Shown here piece by piece: positions 742 to 8,139 of a stretch of 12,179 bases of DNA (the stretch's first letter is position 1; each line of letters opens with the position of its first letter). Under the pieces are notes generated by a model, which made no database searches, was not told the origin of the DNA, and saw nothing but the letters and a program-made list of their open reading frames with translations. A program made the position numbers and the translations under genes. The stretch is from Thermoproteota archaeon (lineage in GTDB: Archaea > Korarchaeota > Korarchaeia > Korarchaeales > Korarchaeaceae), in the NCBI GenBank assembly GCA_027492205.1, contig JAOZFN010000007.1, positions 110,994 through 123,172 on the forward strand, given 5' to 3'.

Positions 742-2223
742 ATGCCCAAGATCCGGAGAAAGAAGGGTTCAGAAACCACGATAGAGTTGAAGGATCCTAA
801 AGAGATCGTGGGGGAGCTCAACCTCCAGCACGTAGTCGAGCTGGTCCCCGGGATGGCCTACAGGGGCGTGAGAGAGGGCACCTACTACGTGATCGAGCCC
901 CCCCTCCCCGGGGAGCTGGCCAGTAGGATGCTCGAGGTGGGGAAGGAGTACGTCCTGGCCAGGGTCAGGCCGGAGCAGGCGGAGTACATGGAGAGGGTCT
1001 ACGAGAGGGCCGCTGAAACGGCCATAAAAGAGGCGGGGGTGAAGCTCAAGGGCGAGGAGGGCGATAAGGCCAGGGGGAGGTTGAGGGACTACCTGACGTA
1101 CTACCTCAGGAGGGACATCGAGGGGCTCGGCCCCATAGAGCCGGTGATGAGGGACCCGCACGTCGAGGACCTGACCCTCCCGGCCAGGGGCAGCAGGAGG
1201 CTGTACGTCTACCTGGGGGACCTCGGCGACTGGTTCAGGTCCAACATACGGATCGAGGAGGAGGAGGCCAAGAGGATCGTGCTGAAGCTGGCGGAGCTGG
1301 TCGGCAAGCAGGTGTCCCTGGCGGAGCCGAGGCTCGAGGGGAGGCTGCCGGACGGCAGCAGGGTGCACGCCCTCTACGGGGAGGCCGCAAGCTCGGGGGG
1401 AACCGTCTTCACCATAAGGAAGTTCGTGGTGAGGCCGACCATCGAGAAGCTGATACTGTGGGGCGCCATATCGCTGGAGGCCACCGCCTACCTCTGGACG
1501 CTCCTGGACCACGGCATCTCCGGCTTCATAGCGGGAGAGACCGGAACGGGTAAGACCACACTCCTCAACAGCCTCCTGTCACTCCTCCCGAGGAGGAAGC
1601 ACATAGTCACGGTCGAGGACACCGCCGAGATATTCCTGCCCGAGCACGAGAACTGGACCTCCCTCCTGGGGACCCCGCCCGGCATGGGGCCCAAGGGGCT
1701 CACGATAGTCGACCTCCTGAGGGACGTGCTCAGGATGAGGCCCGACTACGTCGTGGTGGGCGAGAGCAGGGGTGAGGAGACCAGGCTGCTCCTGCAGTTC
1801 ATCAACGTGGGCCACACGTCCCTCACGACGTTCCACTCCGACACGCTGGAGGGCGTGGTGAGGAGGCTCATGAGCGACCCGATAAACATGACCGTCGAGG
1901 AGGTCGCGAGCTTCAAGGTGGCGGTCCTCCTCAGGAGGAGGGGCAAGAAGAGGGGCGTGGTCAGGATCGCGGAGATACTCGCGACCCCGGAGAGGGACAG
2001 GATAGTCTTCAACGACGTATTCACGAGGCCGGGTGGTCTGGAGGGGCCCCTCGTCGGAGATCCGCTCCCCAAGAGCGTCCTGTTCTCGCAGATAGCGGAG
2101 CAGGAGGGGATACCCAAGGAGGTCATAGTGGAGGAGTTCTTCGACAAGGCGGAGGAGCTGCTGAGGAGGGTGGGCCGATTCAGCGGGAGGGAGGCGCTTG
2201 TCGAGGCTGAATCCGCTGAGTGA
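742..2223 (+). CDS. Type IV pilus assembly ATPase (archaeal PilB/TadA/VirB11/ArlI family)
   Basis: 493 aa; Walker A GETGTGKT, Asp box VTVEDTAE, LRMRPDYVVVGE (Walker B), His box GHTSLTTFH; N-terminal GLGPIEPVMRDPHVED and LPDGSRV motifs typical of this family. Confidence 0.95.
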   Translation: MPKIRRKKGSETTIELKDPKEIVGELNLQHVVELVPGMAYRGVREGTYYVIEPPLPGELASRMLEVGKEYVLARVRPEQAEYMERVYERAAETAIKEAGVKLKGEEGDKARGRLRDYLTYYLRRDIEGLGPIEPVMRDPHVEDLTLPARGSRRLYVYLGDLGDWFRSNIRIEEEEAKRIVLKLAELVGKQVSLAEPRLEGRLPDGSRVHALYGEAASSGGTVFTIRKFVVRPTIEKLILWGAISLEATAYLWTLLDHGISGFIAGETGTGKTTLLNSLLSLLPRRKHIVTVEDTAEIFLPEHENWTSLLGTPPGMGPKGLTIVDLLRDVLRMRPDYVVVGESRGEETRLLLQFINVGHTSLTTFHSDTLEGVVRRLMSDPINMTVEEVASFKVAVLLRRRGKKRGVVRIAEILATPERDRIVFNDVFTRPGGLEGPLVGDPLPKSVLFSQIAEQEGIPKEVIVEEFFDKAEELLRRVGRFSGREALVEAESAE

Positions 2224-3841
2224 GGAGTTCTTCATATCGGCGGGGATGTTCGACCAGAGCCCGTCCCGGTTCGCGCTGAGGATCGGCCTGATCGCATCTA
2301 TAATGCTTCTCCTGGCGTCTTCGCTCTACAGGACGGGCATGCTGACGGACCCCTACAGGCTGGCCCTGCTGGTCCTCACGCCGACCCTACCGCTCGCGCT
2401 CAGCCCGTACCTCGCCAGGCTGAACATGGGCGCCAAGCTCGAGAGGGACATGTGGGCCTACCTCGCCACCCTCTGGCTGCTCCAGAGGGCCAAGAAGTCC
2501 CTGAGCGAGTCGTTCAAGGCGGCCGGGGAGGTCTCAGACGACGAGGAGGTCAAGACCTACTTCAGGGTGGCCGCCGCCAGGCTGAAGGCCGCAGGGACGC
2601 TGGAGGGGCTCAGGGCCAACTTGAGGTACTGCCCGAGCTCCGCCTGGAGGAGGATCTACAGGCGCCTGGCGGACTACTTCTTCACCAGGGGTGAGGCCGT
2701 CGACGAGATGCTTGGGTCGGAGCTCCACGACACCATAAACAGGACCATGCAGGACCTGAGGAGGAACCTCGAGATGGTCATGGTCATCCTGATAATCTAC
2801 GTCCTGGTGTCCACGGTGTTTCCGTTCGTGGTCACGCTGCTCTACACCTTCCAGGCGCTGGTGTCGGGGTTCGGCGGCGGGGGGATGAGCAACCTGGCCC
2901 TGATGTCCGCCGTGCTCCCGTCCCCGATGTTCATAGCGCTCTTCAAGATACTTGCCCCACGCTACTACCGGTTCGACGGGGAGACCATGGCCCTGGGGTG
3001 GGGGGCCTTCGCCGCGGGGTTCATGGGCGCGGTCCTCGCCTCCTACTACGTCTGGACGGTAATCCCGCCCATCGGGGGGGGCGGGGTGGTCGCGACGGTC
3101 CTCAACTCGCTCAGGAGCATGAGCATCTGGCTCAGGGCGACCTTCGGCCTCCTCTTCGGGGGCCTGGCCGGCTGGCTGGCGGTCAGGGGCAGGGAGGCCA
3201 GGCTCAGGGGGGAGGCCCTGGACTACCCCCTATTCCTGCAGGACCTGTTCGTCGAGCTCAGGGGGGGCAGGAGCTTCTGCAAGGCCGTGGAGGACATGAA
3301 GGCCAGCTACAGGACCCTGAGGGAGTTCATGACGACGGTCAAGTACTGGGCCCGCCTCAGGCTGCCCTACACGGACATCCTCAGGTGGATATCGGAGAGG
3401 CAGAGGCAGAGCATCTCGAGGATGGCCACCCTCCTCATAATGACGGCGCTGGACGCCGGGGTGGAGCTCAAGGAGGCGTTCGGCACGATATCCCAGTTCA
3501 TGACCAGGGTCAGGGAGCTCTGGCTGGAGGCCGAGGCGGAGAAGAGGGGGAACTACGTGACGGCCATACTCTCCTTCACGTTCGCCGTGGCCTCCATCGC
3601 GATACTGGTCAGGCTCCTGAGCATCCCGATAGCCCCCACCGCGGCCGAGGTCATAAAGAGCGGGCTGATGCTCCAGGGATTCCTGCAGGCGCTGATAATG
3701 GGCCTCTCCCTCGGGGTGGTCAGGACGGGGCACCTGACGTCGTCGTTCAGGGAGATCTTCATCCTCTCTATTCCGACCATAGTGTCCCTGGCCCTCGTGC
3801 AGGCGTGGTCCCCTCCCCCGCTGACCATCGGGGGGGCGTGA
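2198..3841 (+). CDS. Type IV pilus membrane platform protein (TadC/PilC/ArlJ-like, two T2SSF-type halves)
   Basis: 547 aa polytopic membrane protein with two soluble helical regions (…YLATLWLLQRAKKSLSESFK…; …DYPLFLQDLFVELRGGRSFCKAVE…), each followed by TM helices; overlaps the ATPase stop; GGGAGG precedes TTG 2198 (alternative ATG at 2246). Confidence 0.9.
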   Translation: MSRLNPLSEEFFISAGMFDQSPSRFALRIGLIASIMLLLASSLYRTGMLTDPYRLALLVLTPTLPLALSPYLARLNMGAKLERDMWAYLATLWLLQRAKKSLSESFKAAGEVSDDEEVKTYFRVAAARLKAAGTLEGLRANLRYCPSSAWRRIYRRLADYFFTRGEAVDEMLGSELHDTINRTMQDLRRNLEMVMVILIIYVLVSTVFPFVVTLLYTFQALVSGFGGGGMSNLALMSAVLPSPMFIALFKILAPRYYRFDGETMALGWGAFAAGFMGAVLASYYVWTVIPPIGGGGVVATVLNSLRSMSIWLRATFGLLFGGLAGWLAVRGREARLRGEALDYPLFLQDLFVELRGGRSFCKAVEDMKASYRTLREFMTTVKYWARLRLPYTDILRWISERQRQSISRMATLLIMTALDAGVELKEAFGTISQFMTRVRELWLEAEAEKRGNYVTAILSFTFAVASIAILVRLLSIPIAPTAAEVIKSGLMLQGFLQALIMGLSLGVVRTGHLTSSFREIFILSIPTIVSLALVQAWSPPPLTIGGA

Positions 3842-3880: not shown

Positions 3881-4444
3881 CTAGGGCCAGTAGACGTGCA
3901 TGGACTGGGCTCCCCCGGGCCCGAACAGCCTGACCGTGAACCTCTCGACCCCGCCCTGGGCCAGGCTCGGGTAGTAGATCGCCCAGGTCTCCCCCGGCTC
4001 CAGGAGCTCCGGGTCGGAGTCCGGGCCGGACACGCTCTCGTAGCATATCGGCGGGTAGGTCCCCAGCCACCTGGACGGGAAGAAGCCCGTGGAGTTGTCG
4101 ACGGCCGCCGGCCAGGAGCATCCTCCGTCGAGGCCGAAGTCCGACCTGCAGACCTGATCTATCCACTGGTGCGACGGGTCGTCGAAGTAGCCCTCGACAC
4201 CGGACCTGGGGACCCTCGTGACCCCCACGTTCTTGACGTAGACGACCAGGAACCGATAGCCTCCCCTATCCTCGGAGGGCGTGACCGCGACGATCTGCAG
4301 GTTGTGGGAGGGTGCGTTGTAGAAGCTGTGGGACACGCCACCCAGGACGTACGACCCAAGCGGGGTGAAGGCGACCAGGGCCAGGGAGACCGCGAGCACG
4401 AGGAGCACGACGTCCACGACCACCCTGGACACGCCAGCCCCCAT
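3881..4444 (-). CDS. Archaeal type IV pilin-like protein (paralog D)
   Basis: 187 aa; MGAG|VSRVVVDVVLLVLAVSLALVAFTPLGSYVLGG; head motifs YVKNVG, LEPGET and FTVRLFGPGG shared with the other pilins; SD-like GGGGTGA overlaps the stop of the upstream pilin. Confidence 0.85.
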   Translation of the reverse strand: MGAGVSRVVVDVVLLVLAVSLALVAFTPLGSYVLGGVSHSFYNAPSHNLQIVAVTPSEDRGGYRFLVVYVKNVGVTRVPRSGVEGYFDDPSHQWIDQVCRSDFGLDGGCSWPAAVDNSTGFFPSRWLGTYPPICYESVSGPDSDPELLEPGETWAIYYPSLAQGGVERFTVRLFGPGGAQSMHVYWP

Positions 4445-4936
4445 GCCCTCACCCCGGCCTGTGGAGGTACTTGACCGACGTGGACTCTGGGCCGTAGACC
4501 TCTATGGAGAACTGGGATGTCGGGTTCTGGGCGGCCCCGCGGACGTAGAGCAGCCAGATCTCCCCCTCGCTCAGGCTGTTGTAGAAGCAGTCATCCGAAA
4601 TGTACCTCTCAGTCTCGTCAAACCAGGCGACGACGGCGCACGGCTTCACCGAGTACCTCCCGGAGGAGTTGTCGATGACCACCAGCCAGGCGTCCTCGTT
4701 CGGGGGGTTCCCCTGCGAGGGGCACCACCCGGCCACGTCGCCCAGGTCGCCCGGTCCCAGGTTCATGACGAAGATCCAGAGCCCGGGCTCCGACTCCGAG
4801 CCGCACCAGGTCACTCCCAGGCCGGTGGGGGGAGGCTTCTCCGGGTTTATCCCGACCACGTCGAGCATCGGATGCCCCGCAGCGGCCTGAACCCTAGACA
4901 TACCCCCCAGGACGTACGACCCCAGCGGGGTGAAGG
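4341..4936. repeat. 31-bp near-identical direct repeat between pilins D and C (4341-4371 and 4906-4936)
   Basis: cccaggacgtacgaccc(a/c)agcggggtgaagg, 30/31 identical; encodes FTPLGSYVLG on the - strand. Confidence 0.8.
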
Positions 4937-5024
4937 TTATGAGGGCCAGGGCGACCGAGAGGGCCAGGAGGGCGGCCTCCGCGGCCAGCCTGGCGATCCC
5001 CGCCCTGACGCAACGCGCCTGCAC
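4449..5024 (-). CDS. Archaeal type IV pilin-like protein (paralog C)
   Basis: 191 aa; …VRAG|IARLAAEAALLALSVALALITFTPLGSYVLGG; head motifs FVMNLGP, WLVVIDN, LSEGE and FSIEVYGP. Confidence 0.85.
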   Translation of the reverse strand: MQARCVRAGIARLAAEAALLALSVALALITFTPLGSYVLGGMSRVQAAAGHPMLDVVGINPEKPPPTGLGVTWCGSESEPGLWIFVMNLGPGDLGDVAGWCPSQGNPPNEDAWLVVIDNSSGRYSVKPCAVVAWFDETERYISDDCFYNSLSEGEIWLLYVRGAAQNPTSQFSIEVYGPESTSVKYLHRPG

Positions 5025-5040
5025 GACATTTTCCCTCTCT

Positions 5041-5066
5041 CGGGATATAATAAAGATATTTTCCCG
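5041..5066 (-). promoter_or_regulatory. Putative promoter of pilins C-D
   Basis: - strand CGGGAAAATATCTTTATTATATCCCG; TATA ends about 22 nt upstream of GTG 5024 (leaderless or near-leaderless); flanked by CGGGA…TCCCG inverted arms. Confidence 0.6.
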
Positions 5067-5208
5067 CAGAGGCCTGAATAGGGCCCGTGGAGGGGGTTTG
5101 GCCGGGACACCCGTGCGATGCCATTGAGAGTCCAGCCGCCCGCGGGAAGCAGAAGCCCTAGGCTGAAATTTGAGCCGCAGGGGCTTGTGGGAAGGGAAAA
5201 ACGGACAC

Positions 5209-5218
5209 CTTTATATTT
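5209..5218 (+). promoter_or_regulatory. Putative TATA box of pilins A-B
   Basis: CTTTATATTT about 50 nt upstream of GTG 5266; SD-like GGGGTGG at 5253-5259. Confidence 0.6.
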
Positions 5219-5252
5219 GTTCCCCGCCAGGTGAGTTACCACAGACCCCTGT

Positions 5253-5863
5253 GGGGTGGTTGAGGGTGAGGGCTGGCATATCCAGGGTGGTTGTGGAGGT
5301 CATCATACTGGTCATAGCGGTGGCGCTGGCCCTGCTGATCTTCAGCCCGGTGGGGAGCTACATATTCGGGGCGCTCGGCAGGACCTCCAGCGTGGGCGGG
5401 CAGACCACGATAGCCGTGATAAACGCAGGCTTCGATGGATCAGGGAACTTGCACCTCTACATAAAGAATGTGGGGCCAAACGACGTCGACCTCCAGGATA
5501 CCTCATCCCCATCGGTTGACTGGCAGGTCTTCATCAACAACGTGCCCGCAGGCAGTATGAGTTACGTCGGCGGTACAGTCCCTGACCCATTCACTGTAGA
5601 TTCCGTGATAGAGATTCAGATTTCAAGTAGCGACTCGTCCCTAAGTGGCCTATCTGAGACCAGCTCCTTCACCATAGTGGTGTACGGGCCCCAGGGCACC
5701 CAGACGGAGTACCTGTACAGGGGTGGTTGAGGGTGAGGGCTGGCATATCCAGGGTGGTTGTGGAGGTCATCATACTGGTCATAGCGGTGGCGCTGGCCCT
5801 GCTGATCTTCAGCCCGGTGGGGAGCTACATATTCGGGGCGCTCGGCAGGACCTCCAGCGTGGG
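5253..5863 (+). repeat. 144-bp perfect direct repeat (5253-5396 = 5720-5863)
   Basis: Identical base by base from GGGGTGGTTGAGGGTG… to …CAGCGTGGG; offset 467 bp; covers the SD, signal peptide and alpha-1 helix. Confidence 0.97.
5266..5730 (+). CDS. Archaeal type IV pilin (paralog A, probable major pilin)
   Basis: 154 aa from GTG 5266 (SD GGGGTGG 6 nt upstream; TTG 5260 is an alternative; the track's 5170 start lies upstream of the TATA box). MRAG|ISRVVVEVIILVIAVALALLIF, hydrophobic helix, beta-rich head with LYIKNVG and VVYGP. Confidence 0.9.
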   Translation: MRAGISRVVVEVIILVIAVALALLIFSPVGSYIFGALGRTSSVGGQTTIAVINAGFDGSGNLHLYIKNVGPNDVDLQDTSSPSVDWQVFINNVPAGSMSYVGGTVPDPFTVDSVIEIQISSSDSSLSGLSETSSFTIVVYGPQGTQTEYLYRGG

Positions 5864-6208
5864 GGGCAGCACAAGCATATCTGTGCTCTCAGTTAATTTA
5901 AGCAATGACGGGAGCCAACTGACCCTCTTCATAAAGAACGTTGGCCCAGGCTCGGTAGATGGCAGCAAGGCGCTGAACCCAGGAAATTGGAGCGTATTTA
6001 TTGATAATGTCAGGGCAACGATCCCCACCACTAACAACCCATCCGCATTCAGCGGTACCATAGGCTCTAGTGATCCCTGGGAGCCGGGAGAGGTGATCAA
6101 ACTCAATGTTAATCCACAAAACTCACCGGCTCCCTCACCAACTGGCTCCTTCACCATAGTGGTGTACGGGCCCCAGGGCACCCAGACGGAGTACCTGTAC
6201 AGGGGTGG
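5663..6208 (+). repeat. 64-bp perfect direct repeat (5663-5726 = 6145-6208)
   Basis: GCTCCTTCACCATAGTGGTGTACGGGCCCCAGGGCACCCAGACGGAGTACCTGTACAGGGGTGG in both copies; offset 482 bp; encodes SFTIVVYGPQGTQTEYLYRGG. Confidence 0.97.
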
Positions 6209-6212
6209 CTGA
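5733..6212 (+). CDS. Archaeal type IV pilin (paralog B, probable major pilin)
   Basis: 159 aa from GTG 5733; N- and C-termini identical to paralog A, central head diverged (LFIKNVG, WSVFIDN, WEPGE). Confidence 0.9.
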   Translation: MRAGISRVVVEVIILVIAVALALLIFSPVGSYIFGALGRTSSVGGSTSISVLSVNLSNDGSQLTLFIKNVGPGSVDGSKALNPGNWSVFIDNVRATIPTTNNPSAFSGTIGSSDPWEPGEVIKLNVNPQNSPAPSPTGSFTIVVYGPQGTQTEYLYRGG

Positions 6213-6220
6213 CCCCCCAG

Positions 6221-6246
6221 TCTTCTTTTTTGGAATGTAATGTTTT
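6221..6246 (+). terminator. Archaeal oligo-T terminator of the pilin A-B transcript
   Basis: TCTTCTTTTTT (6221-6231) begins 9 nt after the stop; a second TGTTTT follows at 6241-6246; lies between convergent genes. Confidence 0.65.
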
Positions 6247-6273
6247 GGCATAGATGGCCACGCGCGGTGCCTG

Positions 6274-8139
6274 CTACCCGCCTAGGGAGAGGATCTCCTG
6301 ATAATAGGAGTTGCAGGGGCCGTACACCTCCACGTTGACCCCCGAATAGGCGGGAAGCCTGTTTAGGTCTTCTTTATCTAGAACTAGGAGGACCTGAAGG
6401 CGGACGGCGCCCTCCGCAGTCTCCTCTTGGACTGCAGCCGTGTTCACCTCCGAAACCCTCACGGGGAACCCGTTCACAAAGACCTTCCAGTATGAAGGCT
6501 CCAGGACGTAATCGCTCAATGTAGGATCGACTGCTGCTATTGATATCGCCAATTTATATCGATCTGCCTCCACTGACCTGATCTCCGGCGGCCGCTCTCC
6601 CGTGGCCCTATATATCAGGAGAGAATAGGTCTCCGCCACCAGTTCGAAGCAAGGTGGGGGAAGCCTGTACTCCTCTGGAGACTCCCTCGTCACGACTATC
6701 GGCCTATCGGACTCTGCCAGCTCTGCCCCCTTAGGCTTGGAGATCCGCGATGCGATCTCGCATCCGGCAACGGTCAAGTACCTGGCTCTTACCCCTCCGA
6801 CAGCCGTGATCCCCCTCTCATTCCAACGACTGGCGCAGAAGCCCTCCATGTCGCTCCAAATCTCGATCTGATCATCATGCTCTGGAAGCCTAGCGTACGA
6901 GTAGGCCAGGGAGGCGGCCAGGATCACTGCCAGGAGGACGGCCTCGGCCCTAGGACCGAGACTTGGAGTCAACCTAGTCAGAGATAGGCCGGCCAGCAGA
7001 GAGAAGGGCAGAGCGAGCTGGAGGACGAACCTCCAGCTTTGTCCTGCGAATGCAATGCCCGAGAAGGAGAGATAAGAGGCGATAACTAGCCCTGCCGAGT
7101 ATCCGACCAGCCAGCCTGCGGGTCCCCAACCACGTACTTGGGTCATTCCGCCGAGAGACAGCGCTGACCACCAGGAGAGCAGCCTCGGAATGGGCCCGTG
7201 GAGGAGGGATACTAAGGCTCGAGCCAGCCCTCTGAGGCCAGGGAAGGCCTCAACAGTCCCCCTCCTTGCGTAACCGGAGAGCCTGATAGCTGGAAAATGC
7301 AGCCCTCCGCATACCAGCGCGGCGGAGAGTAGGGGAGCCGCGAGCCCGACTCTCCGTTTGGAGACGGCGGGAACCGCGAGAAACGCGAGGAAGTATAGCG
7401 TGGATGTGTGGGCGACGGGTAATGTGGCGCCCAAGGCCGCGGCCGCGATGAACCTCCTCCTCACGAGGAGGAGCGCGCAGAGAGCCGTGAGCGTGTCGGA
7501 CATCGCGTTGGCGTAAGTCCCCACCCTGAACAGGTGATACAGGCCCGAGGACATCGGAAGGAGGCTCCAGGATGAGAGGAGGCCGACCCTCCTCCCCCAC
7601 AGCTCTCGGCCGATCAGGTATATGAGGGCCCCCTGCGAGGCCGCCAGCGCGGCCAGGATGGCCCTGTAGGAGAGGATCCACCAGACCCCCGGGACCAGGG
7701 AGGCGCACGAGGCGCCGACCAGGTGGACCAGGAAGGGGTAGCCGGCGTCCACCCCGCCCCCCGAGGCGAACCTCAGGGACGACTGGAAGTGGTACAGCTC
7801 GTCCGGGTTGACCCAGGAGGCCGTCATGGGCCTGGCCGCGAGGTACACCGCGGTGACGGCCGCGTGCGGGGCCAGGGCGGCCAGGAAGCCCGGGTCCACC
7901 CGGGGGGATCGGCGGCCCCGGCGGCGGGCCGGCCCCAGGGCGAGGGTGACCGCCGCCAGCGCCGCGGGCAGGATGGCCGGGGGGTAGAGCCTGAGGACCG
8001 GGGCCAGGGCGGCCAGGGCCAGGGCTCCGACGGACGGGGCCGCGGCCAGGGCCTCCTCGAGCCGGTCGAAGAGGGAGACGGAGGCGGACAGCCCCACGAC
8101 GGCGGCCGCGACGGGCGGGACGACCCAGCCTGGGGACAC
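6274..8139 (-). CDS. GT-C-fold integral membrane glycosyltransferase (PMT/ArnT/STT3-like architecture) with a C-terminal pilin-head-like domain
   Basis: 621 aa; many TM segments; NPDELYH acidic motif in an external loop followed by GYPFLVH, and the IYLIGRELWGRRVGLLSS pattern typical of GT-C proteins; WRF after late TMs; soluble C-terminal ~200 aa. Family assigned from motifs only. Confidence 0.7.
   Translation of the reverse strand: MSPGWVVPPVAAAVVGLSASVSLFDRLEEALAAAPSVGALALAALAPVLRLYPPAILPAALAAVTLALGPARRRGRRSPRVDPGFLAALAPHAAVTAVYLAARPMTASWVNPDELYHFQSSLRFASGGGVDAGYPFLVHLVGASCASLVPGVWWILSYRAILAALAASQGALIYLIGRELWGRRVGLLSSWSLLPMSSGLYHLFRVGTYANAMSDTLTALCALLLVRRRFIAAAALGATLPVAHTSTLYFLAFLAVPAVSKRRVGLAAPLLSAALVCGGLHFPAIRLSGYARRGTVEAFPGLRGLARALVSLLHGPIPRLLSWWSALSLGGMTQVRGWGPAGWLVGYSAGLVIASYLSFSGIAFAGQSWRFVLQLALPFSLLAGLSLTRLTPSLGPRAEAVLLAVILAASLAYSYARLPEHDDQIEIWSDMEGFCASRWNERGITAVGGVRARYLTVAGCEIASRISKPKGAELAESDRPIVVTRESPEEYRLPPPCFELVAETYSLLIYRATGERPPEIRSVEADRYKLAISIAAVDPTLSDYVLEPSYWKVFVNGFPVRVSEVNTAAVQEETAEGAVRLQVLLVLDKEDLNRLPAYSGVNVEVYGPCNSYYQEILSLGG

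What the first reader, a model, noticed from the sequence alone, without database searches (positions are those of the whole stretch)
5253..6212. Constant-variable-constant pilin cassettes: candidate archaeal pilin variation system
Seen: pilins A and B are 100% identical over 144 bp (5') and 64 bp (3'), with no synonymous changes. The cores (5397-5662, 266 bp; 5864-6144, 281 bp) are barely alignable, and even the shared LxIKNVGP motif uses different codons (…AAT GTG GGG vs …AAC GTT GGC). Hand counts give cores of about 52% and 50% GC against about 65% for the 5' constant block. A simple duplication would diverge evenly, and protein-level selection would not freeze synonymous sites. Inference: the flanks act as homology arms through which exposed head domains are swapped or imported, or they are homogenised by gene conversion. 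This resembles Neisseria pilE/pilS variation and could serve to evade pilus-binding viruses.
Basis: partly seen in the sequence, partly recalled or inferred. Interest (0 to 1): 0.85.

Follow-up and report, generated by a model that had tools for sequence, protein, structure and literature searches.

The report
Tandem pilin genes with homogenised ends
Two neighbouring pilus-subunit genes of an uncultured hot-spring-type archaeon keep their ends letter-identical by copying between each other, while their exposed middles stay old and different; relatives show the same pattern, so it looks like ordinary gene-family evolution, not a dedicated switching system.

Summary
Window 5253-5396 equals 5720-5863 (144 nt, 100%) and 5663-5726 equals 6145-6208 (64 nt, 100%). 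The cores between them are saturated at synonymous sites.

The genes are two co-oriented archaeal type IV pilins. They lie beside a T2SSE ATPase, a T2SSF platform protein and other pilin-like genes. The 5' block encodes the signal peptide and the whole N-terminal helix. The 3' block encodes the last two beta-strands. The variable core is the rest of the Ig-like domain.

Relatives show the same mosaic. Of 19 distinct same-contig pairs, 10 have N-blocks at least 96% identical in nucleotides. Core trees group positional orthologues across genomes, while N-block trees group paralogues within a genome. One relative's old duplication carries a co-duplicated ATPase fragment now only 70% identical, yet its promoter and N-block are 100% identical.

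This is segmental interlocus gene conversion. I found no silent cassettes in the 96%-complete assembly, so a pilE/pilS-like system is not supported. Import of cores through the flanks remains possible, because core GC3 is low, but it is not shown. No reads could be obtained.

The parts
5210..5217 (+). A/T-rich TATA-like box upstream of pilin A; candidate archaeal promoter for an A-B transcript
   Evidence: Read directly from the sequence. Inference only. The promoter scan tool is a sigma-70 type and was not used.
5253..5396 (+). 5' constant block, copy 1. It holds 13 non-coding bases (a G-rich, Shine-Dalgarno-like stretch) plus codons 1-44 of pilin A: the signal peptide and the whole N-terminal alpha-helix up to the Gly-Gly linker.
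   Evidence: 100% identical to 5720-5863. The AF2 model has a helix at residues 5-43.
5266..5730 (+). Pilin A gene: GTG start, 154 aa, TGA stop at 5728-5730
   Evidence: ORF list. Start chosen by alignment with relatives. AF2 pLDDT 90.2. Foldseek matches archaeal pilins and FlaG/FlaF.
5397..5662 (+). Variable core A (residues about 45-132): most of the Ig-like beta-sandwich
   Evidence: GC3 is 0.64.
5663..5726 (+). 3' constant block, copy 1 (residues 133-154): the last two beta-strands and the C-terminus of pilin A
   Evidence: 100% identical to 6145-6208. Strands 135-140 and 146-151 in the model.
5720..5863 (+). 5' constant block, copy 2. Its first 7 bases are the last bases of copy 1 of the 3' block, so the end of gene A supplies the ribosome-binding region of gene B.
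5733..6212 (+). Pilin B gene: GTG start, 159 aa, TGA stop at 6210-6212. It begins 2 nt after the stop of A, which suggests co-transcription.
   Evidence: Weak sub-threshold Pfam Arch_flagellin hit (27 bits against a cut-off of 29.5). Weak UpsA and ArlG hits.
5864..6144 (+). Variable core B
   Evidence: GC3 is 0.54.
6145..6208 (+). 3' constant block, copy 2
6219..6231 (+). T-rich run just after the stop of pilin B; candidate archaeal terminator. No such run lies between A and B.
   Evidence: Read directly from the sequence. Inference.
742..2223 (+). Secretion/assembly ATPase of the pilus locus (context)
   Evidence: Pfam T2SSE, E 3.2e-29. NCBIfam FlaI-like, 257 bits, below the equivalog cut-off.
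2198..3841 (+). Platform membrane protein (TadC/PilC-like) of the pilus locus (context)
   Evidence: Pfam T2SSF, E 2.9e-10, two stretches.
3881..5024 (-). Two further pilin-like genes (3881-4444 and 4449-5024). Their N-termini are only 74-77% identical in nucleotides to each other and to the A/B block, so they were not homogenised with A/B (context).
   Evidence: (families D2, I1, I2).

Best explanation
Pilin A and pilin B are old tandem paralogues of one type IV pilin family found in Korarchaeia-type archaea. They probably form one operon.

Their ends are strongly constrained at the protein level. These ends are the signal peptide plus the filament-core alpha-helix, and the last two beta-strands. 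The constraint keeps the DNA of the paralogues similar enough at the ends for homologous recombination. Non-reciprocal copying between the copies (interlocus gene conversion) therefore repeatedly resets these stretches to nucleotide identity. In this genome that includes 13 non-coding bases in front of gene A.

The tracts stop where homology stops, at the Gly-Gly linker. The surface-exposed Ig-like cores have diverged too far to recombine and evolve as separate lineages.

SHOWN: the mosaic itself, its recurrence in relatives, the disagreement between flank and core trees, and homogenisation occurring after an old duplication.

INFERRED: identical helices let both subunits use the same assembly machinery and possibly co-polymerise, while the different cores give the pilus alternative or mixed surfaces. 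Homogenisation may be a by-product of the constraint rather than a purpose-built device.
For: (1) WINDOW PAIR. Synonymous codon differences number 1 of 44 and 1 of 21 in the two flanks, against 21 of 32 in the core (p = 2.4e-11). Core dS is saturated. Identity runs 13 nt into non-coding DNA.

(2) NO NUCLEOTIDE-LEVEL CONSTRAINT. Between genomes the N-block is 81-93% identical in amino acids but only 68-77% in nucleotides. The within-genome identity is therefore not imposed by the DNA or RNA sequence itself.

(3) RECURRENCE. There are 19 distinct same-contig pairs: 16 with gaps of at most 26 nt, and 3 with gaps of 728-1452 nt. N-block (126 nt) identity is at least 99% in 6 pairs, 96-98.4% in 4 (the window pair among them) and 82-94% in 9, with up to 22 synonymous differences in 42 codons. 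Exact runs end 109-144 nt after the G-I-S-R codon, at the end of the helix. Identical 3' runs of 71-79 nt occur in L041, L045 and L071, and L041 has one without 5' identity, so the two ends convert independently.

(4) CONCERTED EVOLUTION SEEN DIRECTLY. The two copies are identical within L036 and within L037, but L036 and L037 differ at about 13 sites. The orthologous pair in L040 differs at about 14 sites.

(5) NEAREST NEIGHBOURS. The tandem partner is the nearest relative in the N-block in 22 of 38 gene-wise tests, and in the core in 1 of 38.

(6) TREES. On the N-block, win_A+win_B (98/89) and the G004 pair (96/80) are sisters. On the core, positional orthologues group with 96-100% support. 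The AU test rejects the pair as a clade on the core for L036 (1e-47), L045 (6e-49), G009 (0.019) and the window pair (0.028).

(7) INTERNAL CLOCK IN G009. The duplicated unit carries a fragment of the ATPase 5' end that is now only 70.5% identical in nucleotides to the intact gene. Yet 63 nt of promoter region and about 120 nt of N-block are 100% identical.

(8) STRUCTURE. The constant blocks map to helix 5-43 and strands 135-151.
Against: No population or read data for this organism could be obtained, so no conversion event is observed directly here.

No close orthologue of either window core exists in the data. The best core identity to any other gene is about 46% and 43%. The age of this particular duplication therefore rests on synonymous saturation and on a marginal AU test (p = 0.028, with long branches, and with the pair named after the tree had been seen).

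For the G004 pair the AU test does not reject a clade (p = 0.28).

Conversion alone does not explain why core GC3 (0.64 and 0.54) lies at the 8th and 2.6th percentile of 270-nt windows of this genome's long ORFs, while the flanks (0.86) are typical.

Many comparison pairs come from related populations and are not independent. Metagenome contigs can be chimeric at repeats.
Confidence: 0.8

Rival explanations
1. Cassette import or exchange. The conserved blocks act as homology arms through which whole cores are brought in from other strains or lineages, or re-assorted between loci. On this view the flanks are native and the cores foreign.
For: Core GC3 is 0.64 and 0.54, against 0.86 in the flanks and a genome mean of 0.81. 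In other GC-rich relatives the core GC3 is also below the N-block GC3 (for example L065 0.46 against 0.81, and L022:1985 0.39 against 0.67), but not in low-GC relatives.

Between some close contigs the core is more alike than the N-block: core 92-97% against N-block 87-91%.

L067 carries an N-block whose 3' half matches copy 1 of L041 and a core matching copy 2 of L041. Upstream identity is 87% and downstream identity 97.7%.
Against: No donor was found. The best core match to any sequence is about 46% amino-acid identity, and viral contigs gave none.

In relatives the core types are positional orthologues held in the same order.

In L072 against L076 the background is 96-100% and the dip lies in the N-block (88%), not the core. 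That fits conversion of the N-block from other paralogues.

The ATPase is 60-65% identical to all genera, so there is no pilin-specific sign of transfer.

The mosaic contigs may be assembly chimeras at the repeat. Low GC3 could also mean that the non-recombining cores lag behind in a lineage that is becoming GC-rich.
Confidence: 0.12
2. Programmed antigenic or phase variation of the Neisseria pilE/pilS type. One expressed locus receives variable segments from silent partial copies by directed gene conversion.
For: A constant-variable-constant layout in a pilin, with conversion-competent identical flanks.
Against: Both copies are complete genes. Neither constant block nor either core occurs elsewhere in the assembly. 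The only other related stretch is 77% identical over 84 nt, in a frame-broken paralogue on another contig. What gets homogenised is the constant part, not the variable part, which is the opposite of pilE/pilS. No recombinase or reverse transcriptase was found among the 11 ORFs scanned.
Confidence: 0.03
3. Assembly artefact. Two strain alleles of a single pilin gene were threaded in tandem by the assembler.
For: The genome is a 17-contig scaffold-level assembly containing Ns. Identical 144-nt repeats are hard for short reads. In one relative many pilin copies sit at contig ends.
Against: The A-to-B junction joins the 3' block to the 5' block through only 7 shared bases. That is far shorter than any assembly k-mer, so the junction sequence must come from reads. 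A and B differ in their last codon. Tandem pairs with gaps of 11-26 nt occur in 16 distinct contig pairs from other assemblies.
Confidence: 0.03
4. Very recent tandem duplication followed by extremely fast divergence of the core alone, through diversifying selection or targeted hypermutation.
For: Identical flanks would follow trivially. Exposed pilin domains are common targets of diversifying selection.
Against: Synonymous sites in the core are saturated: 21 of 32 identical residues use different codons. Indels separate the cores. In relatives the cores have orthologues in other genomes. No reverse transcriptase lies in the window.
Confidence: 0.02

Closest known systems
Haloferax volcanii adhesion pilins PilA1-PilA6 (conserved H-domain)
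   Same: Several paralogous archaeal type IV pilins share an almost completely conserved N-terminal hydrophobic domain and have different C-terminal parts. Each can form pili, and the conserved domain is needed for assembly (passages read in PMC4371748).
   Different: Those genes are dispersed and not co-regulated with the biosynthesis genes. The passages I read describe conservation at the protein level only. They mention neither nucleotide identity nor gene conversion, nor a constant C-terminal block. The sequence family is different.
Campylobacter jejuni tandem flagellin genes flaA/flaB
   Same: Two tandem filament-subunit genes kept alike, with intragenomic recombination proposed between them (passages read in PMC5126078). 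Flagellin is also listed among concertedly evolving prokaryotic genes that form homopolymers (passages read in PMC6053082).
   Different: This is a bacterial flagellin, unrelated in fold and assembly. The two genes are about 95% identical throughout rather than mosaic, and they use separate sigma factors.
Saccharolobus islandicus duplicated pilin genes (SiRe_2654/SiRe_2659; Sil_2603/Sil_2606)
   Same: An archaeal type IV pilin of the same fold class; Foldseek matched 6nav and 8tib. Two nearby copies are identical, including their promoters, in strain REY15A, and 94% identical in strain LAL14/1 (passages read in PMC11178852).
   Different: There the whole gene is identical, so there is no variable core. 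The copies are separated by other genes, and the passages I read do not discuss gene conversion.
Neisseria pilE/pilS pilin antigenic variation
   Same: A type IV pilin with constant and variable parts, in which gene conversion is the operating process (abstracts seen in the listing).
   Different: That system moves variable segments from silent, promoterless copies into one expression site. Here both copies are complete, no silent copies were found, and the constant parts are what is copied.
Segmental interlocus gene conversion in tandem paralogues in general (for example mammalian TLR1/TLR6)
   Same: Tandem paralogues in which conversion homogenises some stretches and leaves others divergent, giving mosaic divergence (abstracts seen in the listing: PMC2077338 and 10.1101/2025.10.29.685298).
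   Different: These are eukaryotic examples and not filament subunits.

Membership tests
Archaeal type IV pilin (type IV filament subunit) | N-terminal class III signal peptide followed by a long hydrophobic alpha-helix | tested here: met
   The AF2 model has a helix at residues 5-43, with pLDDT 90. The N-terminus M-R-A-G-I-S-R-V-V-V-E is followed by about 25 hydrophobic residues. There is a weak NCBIfam UpsA N-terminal match (E 7.7e-5, far below the cut-off). The exact cleavage site is inferred, not tested.
Archaeal type IV pilin (type IV filament subunit) | C-terminal Ig-like beta-sandwich resembling solved archaeal pilins | tested here: met
   Foldseek against the PDB matched FlaG 5tuh (E 6e-5), the S. 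islandicus pilus 6nav, the S. solfataricus pilus 6w8x, Aap 8q30 and P. calidifontis 8fk7. The profile also hits 8fk7 by sequence (E 6e-4).
Archaeal type IV pilin (type IV filament subunit) | Genomic association with an assembly ATPase, a platform protein and a prepilin peptidase | tested here: met
   T2SSE and T2SSF genes lie in the window. Peptidase_A24 scores over its cut-off at G000:C9:105686-105955, about 5 kb before the window, and at a second site.
Archaellin (Pfam Arch_flagellin PF01917) / archaellum operon | Family score over the cut-off, plus archaellum accessory genes (FlaH, FlaF/G and others) in the locus | tested here: not met
   Pilin B scores 27 bits against a cut-off of 29.5, and pilin A has no hit. 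No accessory families were found among the 11 window ORFs scanned.
Interlocus gene conversion / concerted evolution | In the tract, paralogues within a genome are more alike than orthologues between genomes, and the trees of tract and remainder disagree | tested here: met
Interlocus gene conversion / concerted evolution | Homogenisation of synonymous and non-coding positions, not only of amino acids | tested here: met
   (synonymous sites). (13 nt upstream in the window). (63 nt of promoter region in G009).
Interlocus gene conversion / concerted evolution | Homogenisation later than the duplication | tested here: met
   Shown in the G009 relative: the co-duplicated ATPase fragment is 70.5% identical while the N-block and promoter are 100% identical. 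For the window pair itself there is only indirect support (saturated core dS; AU p = 0.028).
pilE/pilS-type antigenic variation | Silent, promoterless partial pilin copies that serve as donors | tested here: not met
   blastn of both constant blocks and both cores against all 17 contigs finds only the two genes themselves. The assembly is 96% complete, so a copy in the unassembled part cannot be excluded.
pilE/pilS-type antigenic variation | Many alternative variable segments at one expression site within a population | not testable with these tools
   No sequencing run was listed, and no metagenome contig holds the 5' block.
Diversity-generating retroelement | A reverse transcriptase and a template repeat near the variable region | tested here: not met
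   No reverse-transcriptase family among the 11 window ORFs scanned. No further repeat of the cores in the window or the genome.

The most novel reading that the evidence does not exclude
The letter-identical helix block and C-terminal block may be more than a by-product. They could work as portable homology arms across a whole population of Korarchaeia-type archaea. Exposed pilin cores would then be exchanged between loci, strains and even genera by recombination that starts and ends in the conserved blocks. That would give a shared pool of pilus surfaces that turns over under pressure from pilus-binding viruses or changing substrates. The low GC3 of both window cores, the contigs with the same core between different flanks, and the L041/L067 mosaic would be footprints of such exchange.
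Probability: 0.12. Interest if true: 0.75.

Novelty: new member of a known kind. Interest (0 to 1): 0.45.

Why it matters
This is a clean natural example, supported by comparisons with relatives, of gene conversion confined to the assembly-critical parts of a filament subunit while the exposed domain stays free to diversify. In the pairs with long exact runs, the conversion tract ends at the structural boundary between the helix and the Ig-like domain.

There are practical consequences. Pilin trees built on whole genes in these archaea will be misleading. The identical blocks break short-read assemblies, so copy numbers in metagenome-assembled genomes are uncertain. The family is named 'hypothetical', 'Type IV pilin' or 'FlaG/FlaF' by the sources that hold it, and it is probably the major pilin of an uncharacterised pilus in an uncultured lineage.

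If the bolder reading held (population-wide exchange of cores through the flanks), it would be an archaeal counterpart of bacterial surface-variation systems, and it could be tested with long-read metagenomes.

My literature searches listed no paper describing gene conversion or concerted evolution of archaeal pilins. That covers only the open-access library searched.

Tried and rejected
METAGENOME SCAN. An exact 48-nt pattern from the 5' block found 0 stretches in metagenome contigs, so no alternative cores between identical flanks could be looked for.

SEQUENCING RUNS. For window 5100-6300 none was listed.

VIRAL CONTIGS. 152 pattern matches, none a relative by tblastn.

GENOME_CONTIGS. 19 loci, which added one new single gene and no new pair.

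PROTEIN ATLAS. 

FIRST GENE-FINDING SCRIPT. Its motif was too strict and it printed nothing. I replaced it with tblastn and a looser motif.

OTHER STRAND AND FRAMES. Other frames and the minus strand of 5253-6212 gave no Pfam family at E up to 0.1. Positions 4900-6500 gave no Rfam match at E up to 1.

PILIN-SPECIFIC HORIZONTAL TRANSFER. The C-termini of A and B resemble those of another genus-level group. However, the ATPase is equally distant (60-65%) from all genera, so I make no such claim.

3' IDENTITY COLUMN. The C-terminal 60-nt identity column is unreliable where tails differ in length. I used only the exact-run column.

EARLIER FINDINGS. The look-up of this scan's earlier notes returned nothing.

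COMPLEX PREDICTION. Not run, because the report does not rest on a binding claim.

SUPPLEMENTARY TABLES. Those of PMC4858521 and PMC13705601 list pilus loci per genome and might already classify this locus type. They were closed and I did not see them.
Full report
WHAT IS THERE.

The window is G000:C9:110994-123172, from a 1.94-Mb, 17-contig, 96%-complete assembly with about 63% GC. At 5253-6212 lie two co-oriented genes.

Repeat finding, alignment and blastn agree on two exact repeats:
- 5253-5396 is identical to 5720-5863 (144 nt).
- 5663-5726 is identical to 6145-6208 (64 nt, or 68 nt with one mismatch).

The segments between them (5397-5662 and 5864-6144) align poorly, at about 26-66% identity per 30 columns and with several indels.

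Alignment with relatives places the likely starts at GTG 5266 and GTG 5733. The 5' identical block therefore begins 13 bases before the start of gene A. Gene B starts 2 nt after the stop of gene A. An A/T-rich box at 5210-5217 and a T-run at 6219-6231 suggest a single A-B transcript; I read these from the sequence and they are inference.

WHAT THE GENES ARE.

An AlphaFold2 model of A, built on a 53-sequence alignment, has mean pLDDT 90.2. It shows a helix at residues 5-43 followed by a beta-sandwich at 48-151.

Foldseek against the PDB matches the following at E 6e-5 to 3e-4:
- the archaellum stator proteins FlaG and FlaF;
- the pilins of S. islandicus (6nav), S. solfataricus (6w8x) and S. acidocaldarius Aap (8q30);
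- the P. calidifontis flagellar-like pilus (8fk7).

The family profile also hits 8fk7 by sequence. Pfam and NCBIfam give only sub-threshold hits: Arch_flagellin at 27 bits against a cut-off of 29.5 for B, and weak UpsA and ArlG matches.

The neighbourhood holds a T2SSE ATPase, a T2SSF platform protein and two further pilin-like genes on the other strand. A Peptidase_A24 gene lies about 5 kb before the window. These are therefore type IV pilins of an uncharacterised archaeal pilus.

The sources that hold homologues name them Thermoproteota, Korarchaeota or Candidatus Methanodesulfokora. The family has 173 members at E up to 1e-3 in the large protein set.

HOW THE BLOCKS MAP ONTO THE PROTEIN.

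The 5' block encodes residues 1-44. That is the signal peptide and the entire helix up to the Gly-Gly linker. The 3' block encodes residues 133-154, which form the last two strands. The variable core is the rest of the Ig-like domain.

IS IT MORE THAN PROTEIN-LEVEL CONSERVATION?

Yes. I counted residues identical in both proteins that use different codons: 1 of 44 in the 5' block and 1 of 21 in the 3' block, against 21 of 32 in the core (p = 2.4e-11). Core dS is saturated and core dN is 0.77.

Between genomes, the same N-block is 81-93% identical in amino acids but only 68-77% in nucleotides. Nothing therefore forces these particular codons. Identity also runs into non-coding DNA.

RELATIVES.

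A protein search of 40 related genomes found the family in 14 of them, often as pairs. A metagenome scan added 51 loci.

From all loci I extracted 86 genes. Of these, 82 are complete and 68 are distinct. They form 19 distinct same-contig pairs, counting the window pair and after dropping 3 duplicate pairs.

N-block (126 nt) identity within these pairs falls into three groups:
- at least 99% in 6 pairs;
- 96-98.4% in 4 pairs, including the window pair, G004 (same genus-level group) and G009 (another group);
- 82-94% in 9 pairs, with up to 22 synonymous differences in 42 codons.

Where exact runs are long, they end 109-144 nt after the G-I-S-R codon, at the end of the helix. Identical 3' runs of 71-79 nt occur in three pairs, one of which lacks 5' identity.

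The clearest case is L036, L037 and L040. The cores are positional orthologues, 89-93% identical in nucleotides and in the same order. The two N-blocks are identical within L036 and within L037. Yet L036 and L037 differ at about 13 sites, and the two N-blocks in L040 differ at about 14. That is concerted evolution in the textbook sense.

Across all pairs, the tandem partner is the nearest relative in the N-block in 22 of 38 tests, and in the core in 1 of 38.

Maximum-likelihood trees agree. On the N-block, win_A+win_B (98/89) and the G004 pair (96/80) are sisters, and three pairs are identical. On the core, positional orthologues group with 96-100% support.

AU tests reject the pair as a clade on the core for L036 (1e-47), L045 (6e-49), G009 (0.019) and the window pair (0.028). 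They do not reject it for G004 (0.28). The window result is marginal and involves long branches.

AN INTERNAL CLOCK.

In G009 the duplicated unit includes the promoter region, the pilin gene and the first part of the ATPase gene. The ATPase fragment is now only 70.5% identical in nucleotides to the intact gene downstream. Even so, 63 nt of upstream region and about 120 nt of N-block are 100% identical. Homogenisation therefore came long after the duplication.

MECHANISM.

The best reading is segmental interlocus gene conversion. Strong protein constraint on the helix and the last strands keeps paralogues similar enough at the DNA level for homologous recombination. Each conversion then resets them to identity.

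Tracts stop where homology stops, and the cores are beyond the reach of recombination. The two ends convert independently.

Function is inferred. Identical helices allow one machinery to assemble both subunits, perhaps into mixed filaments, while the cores provide different surfaces. The homogenisation may be a neutral by-product, or it may help to keep the paralogues compatible for assembly.

I recall from memory, without having checked, that Sulfolobus recombination needs only short homology. If so, 64-144 nt would be ample.

RIVALS.

Silent-cassette variation of the pilE/pilS type is not supported. No further copy of any block or core exists in the assembly. The only related stretch is a frame-broken paralogue at 77% identity.

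An assembly artefact is unlikely. The A/B junction shares only 7 bases between the blocks, and tandem pairs are common in other assemblies.

Recent duplication with fast core divergence is contradicted by synonymous saturation in the core.

Core import through the flanks stays open at low probability, with evidence on both sides.

For import:
- Core GC3 is 0.64 and 0.54, against 0.86 in the flanks and 0.81 genome-wide.
- The same lag appears in other GC-rich relatives.
- Some close contigs have cores more alike than their N-blocks.
- L067 looks like a recombinant of the two copies of L041.

Against import:
- In L072 against L076 the divergence peak lies in the N-block on a 96-100% background, which fits conversion from other paralogues.
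- No donor exists in any collection searched.
- Contig mosaics at repeats may be chimeras.

COMPARISON WITH WHAT IS KNOWN.

The nearest functional analogue is the Haloferax volcanii PilA1-6 set, which shares an almost fully conserved hydrophobic domain (PMC4371748, passages read).

The nearest genetic analogues are:
- the tandem flaA/flaB flagellin genes of Campylobacter (PMC5126078, passages read);
- the concertedly evolving prokaryotic genes that encode homopolymers (PMC6053082, passages read);
- the two identical S. islandicus pilin genes (PMC11178852, passages read).

None of the passages I read describes mosaic conversion in archaeal pilins. Searches for it listed nothing, and neither did targeted look-ups in two surveys of archaeal pilus systems. 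Supplementary tables of those surveys were closed.

VERDICT.

The 'variation system' half is not supported. This is a new member of a known kind of process and of moderate interest.

Noticed in passing
window 6274-8139 (- strand): A 621-aa multi-pass membrane protein with no Pfam or NCBIfam family. It ends in a roughly 100-aa domain that resembles the pilin Ig-like domain, with W-K-V-F-V-N and V-E-V-Y-G-P motifs. The BLASTP similarity to pilin B is weak (E 0.003). A 23-nt imperfect inverted repeat links its 3' end to both 3' constant blocks (I3 and I4). Glycosyltransferase genes follow it. It may be a pilin-modifying or pilus-associated enzyme.
   Followed up: partly
L007 2172-2620 (G009), between its two pilin copies: A fragment of the ATPase N-terminus lies between the two pilin copies. 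It is 39% identical to the window ATPase (E 3e-12) and 70.5% identical in nucleotides to the intact ATPase gene downstream. The ancestral duplication unit was therefore promoter + pilin + the 5' end of the ATPase gene.
   Followed up: yes
L003 1083-1596 (- strand) = G000 contig C1: A further pilin paralogue in the same genome appears split over two reading frames. One frame holds the N-terminal helix and another the C-terminal strands. This is either a frameshifted pseudogene or an assembly error. Its N-block is 77% identical to the A/B block over 84 nt.
   Followed up: partly
window 5397-5662 and 5864-6144: Both cores have unusually low third-position GC for this genome (0.64 and 0.54 against a mean of 0.81). 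The constant blocks and the neighbouring genes (0.78-0.94) are typical. This remains unexplained. Possible causes are foreign origin, a lag of non-recombining DNA in a lineage becoming GC-rich, or GC-biased conversion in the flanks.
   Followed up: partly
window 5733-6212 versus 5266-5730: Reading the translations, pilin B has two N-x-S/T sequons (N-L-S and N-W-S) in its core, and I found none in the core of pilin A. Both cores are rich in Ser and Thr. The two subunits may therefore be glycosylated differently.
   Followed up: no
G014 contigs; loci L025-L030: One 2.9-Mb relative (6% contamination) gave 13 matches to the pilin query, 11 of them strong family members (E 4e-24 or better). Several sit at contig ends. 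The repeated blocks probably break short-read assemblies, so copy numbers in such genomes are uncertain.
   Followed up: partly
L072 1168-1554 versus L076: A roughly 390-nt A/T-rich segment just downstream of the pilin gene is present in L072 and absent from the otherwise 96-100% identical L076. No long open frame was seen in the three forward reading frames.
   Followed up: no
window 5240-5252 versus 5707-5719: Just upstream of the 5' block of gene A, the bases partly resemble the end of the 3' constant block (C-C-T-G-T, then a 3-nt gap). This may be a relic of an earlier upstream copy, or chance.
   Followed up: no
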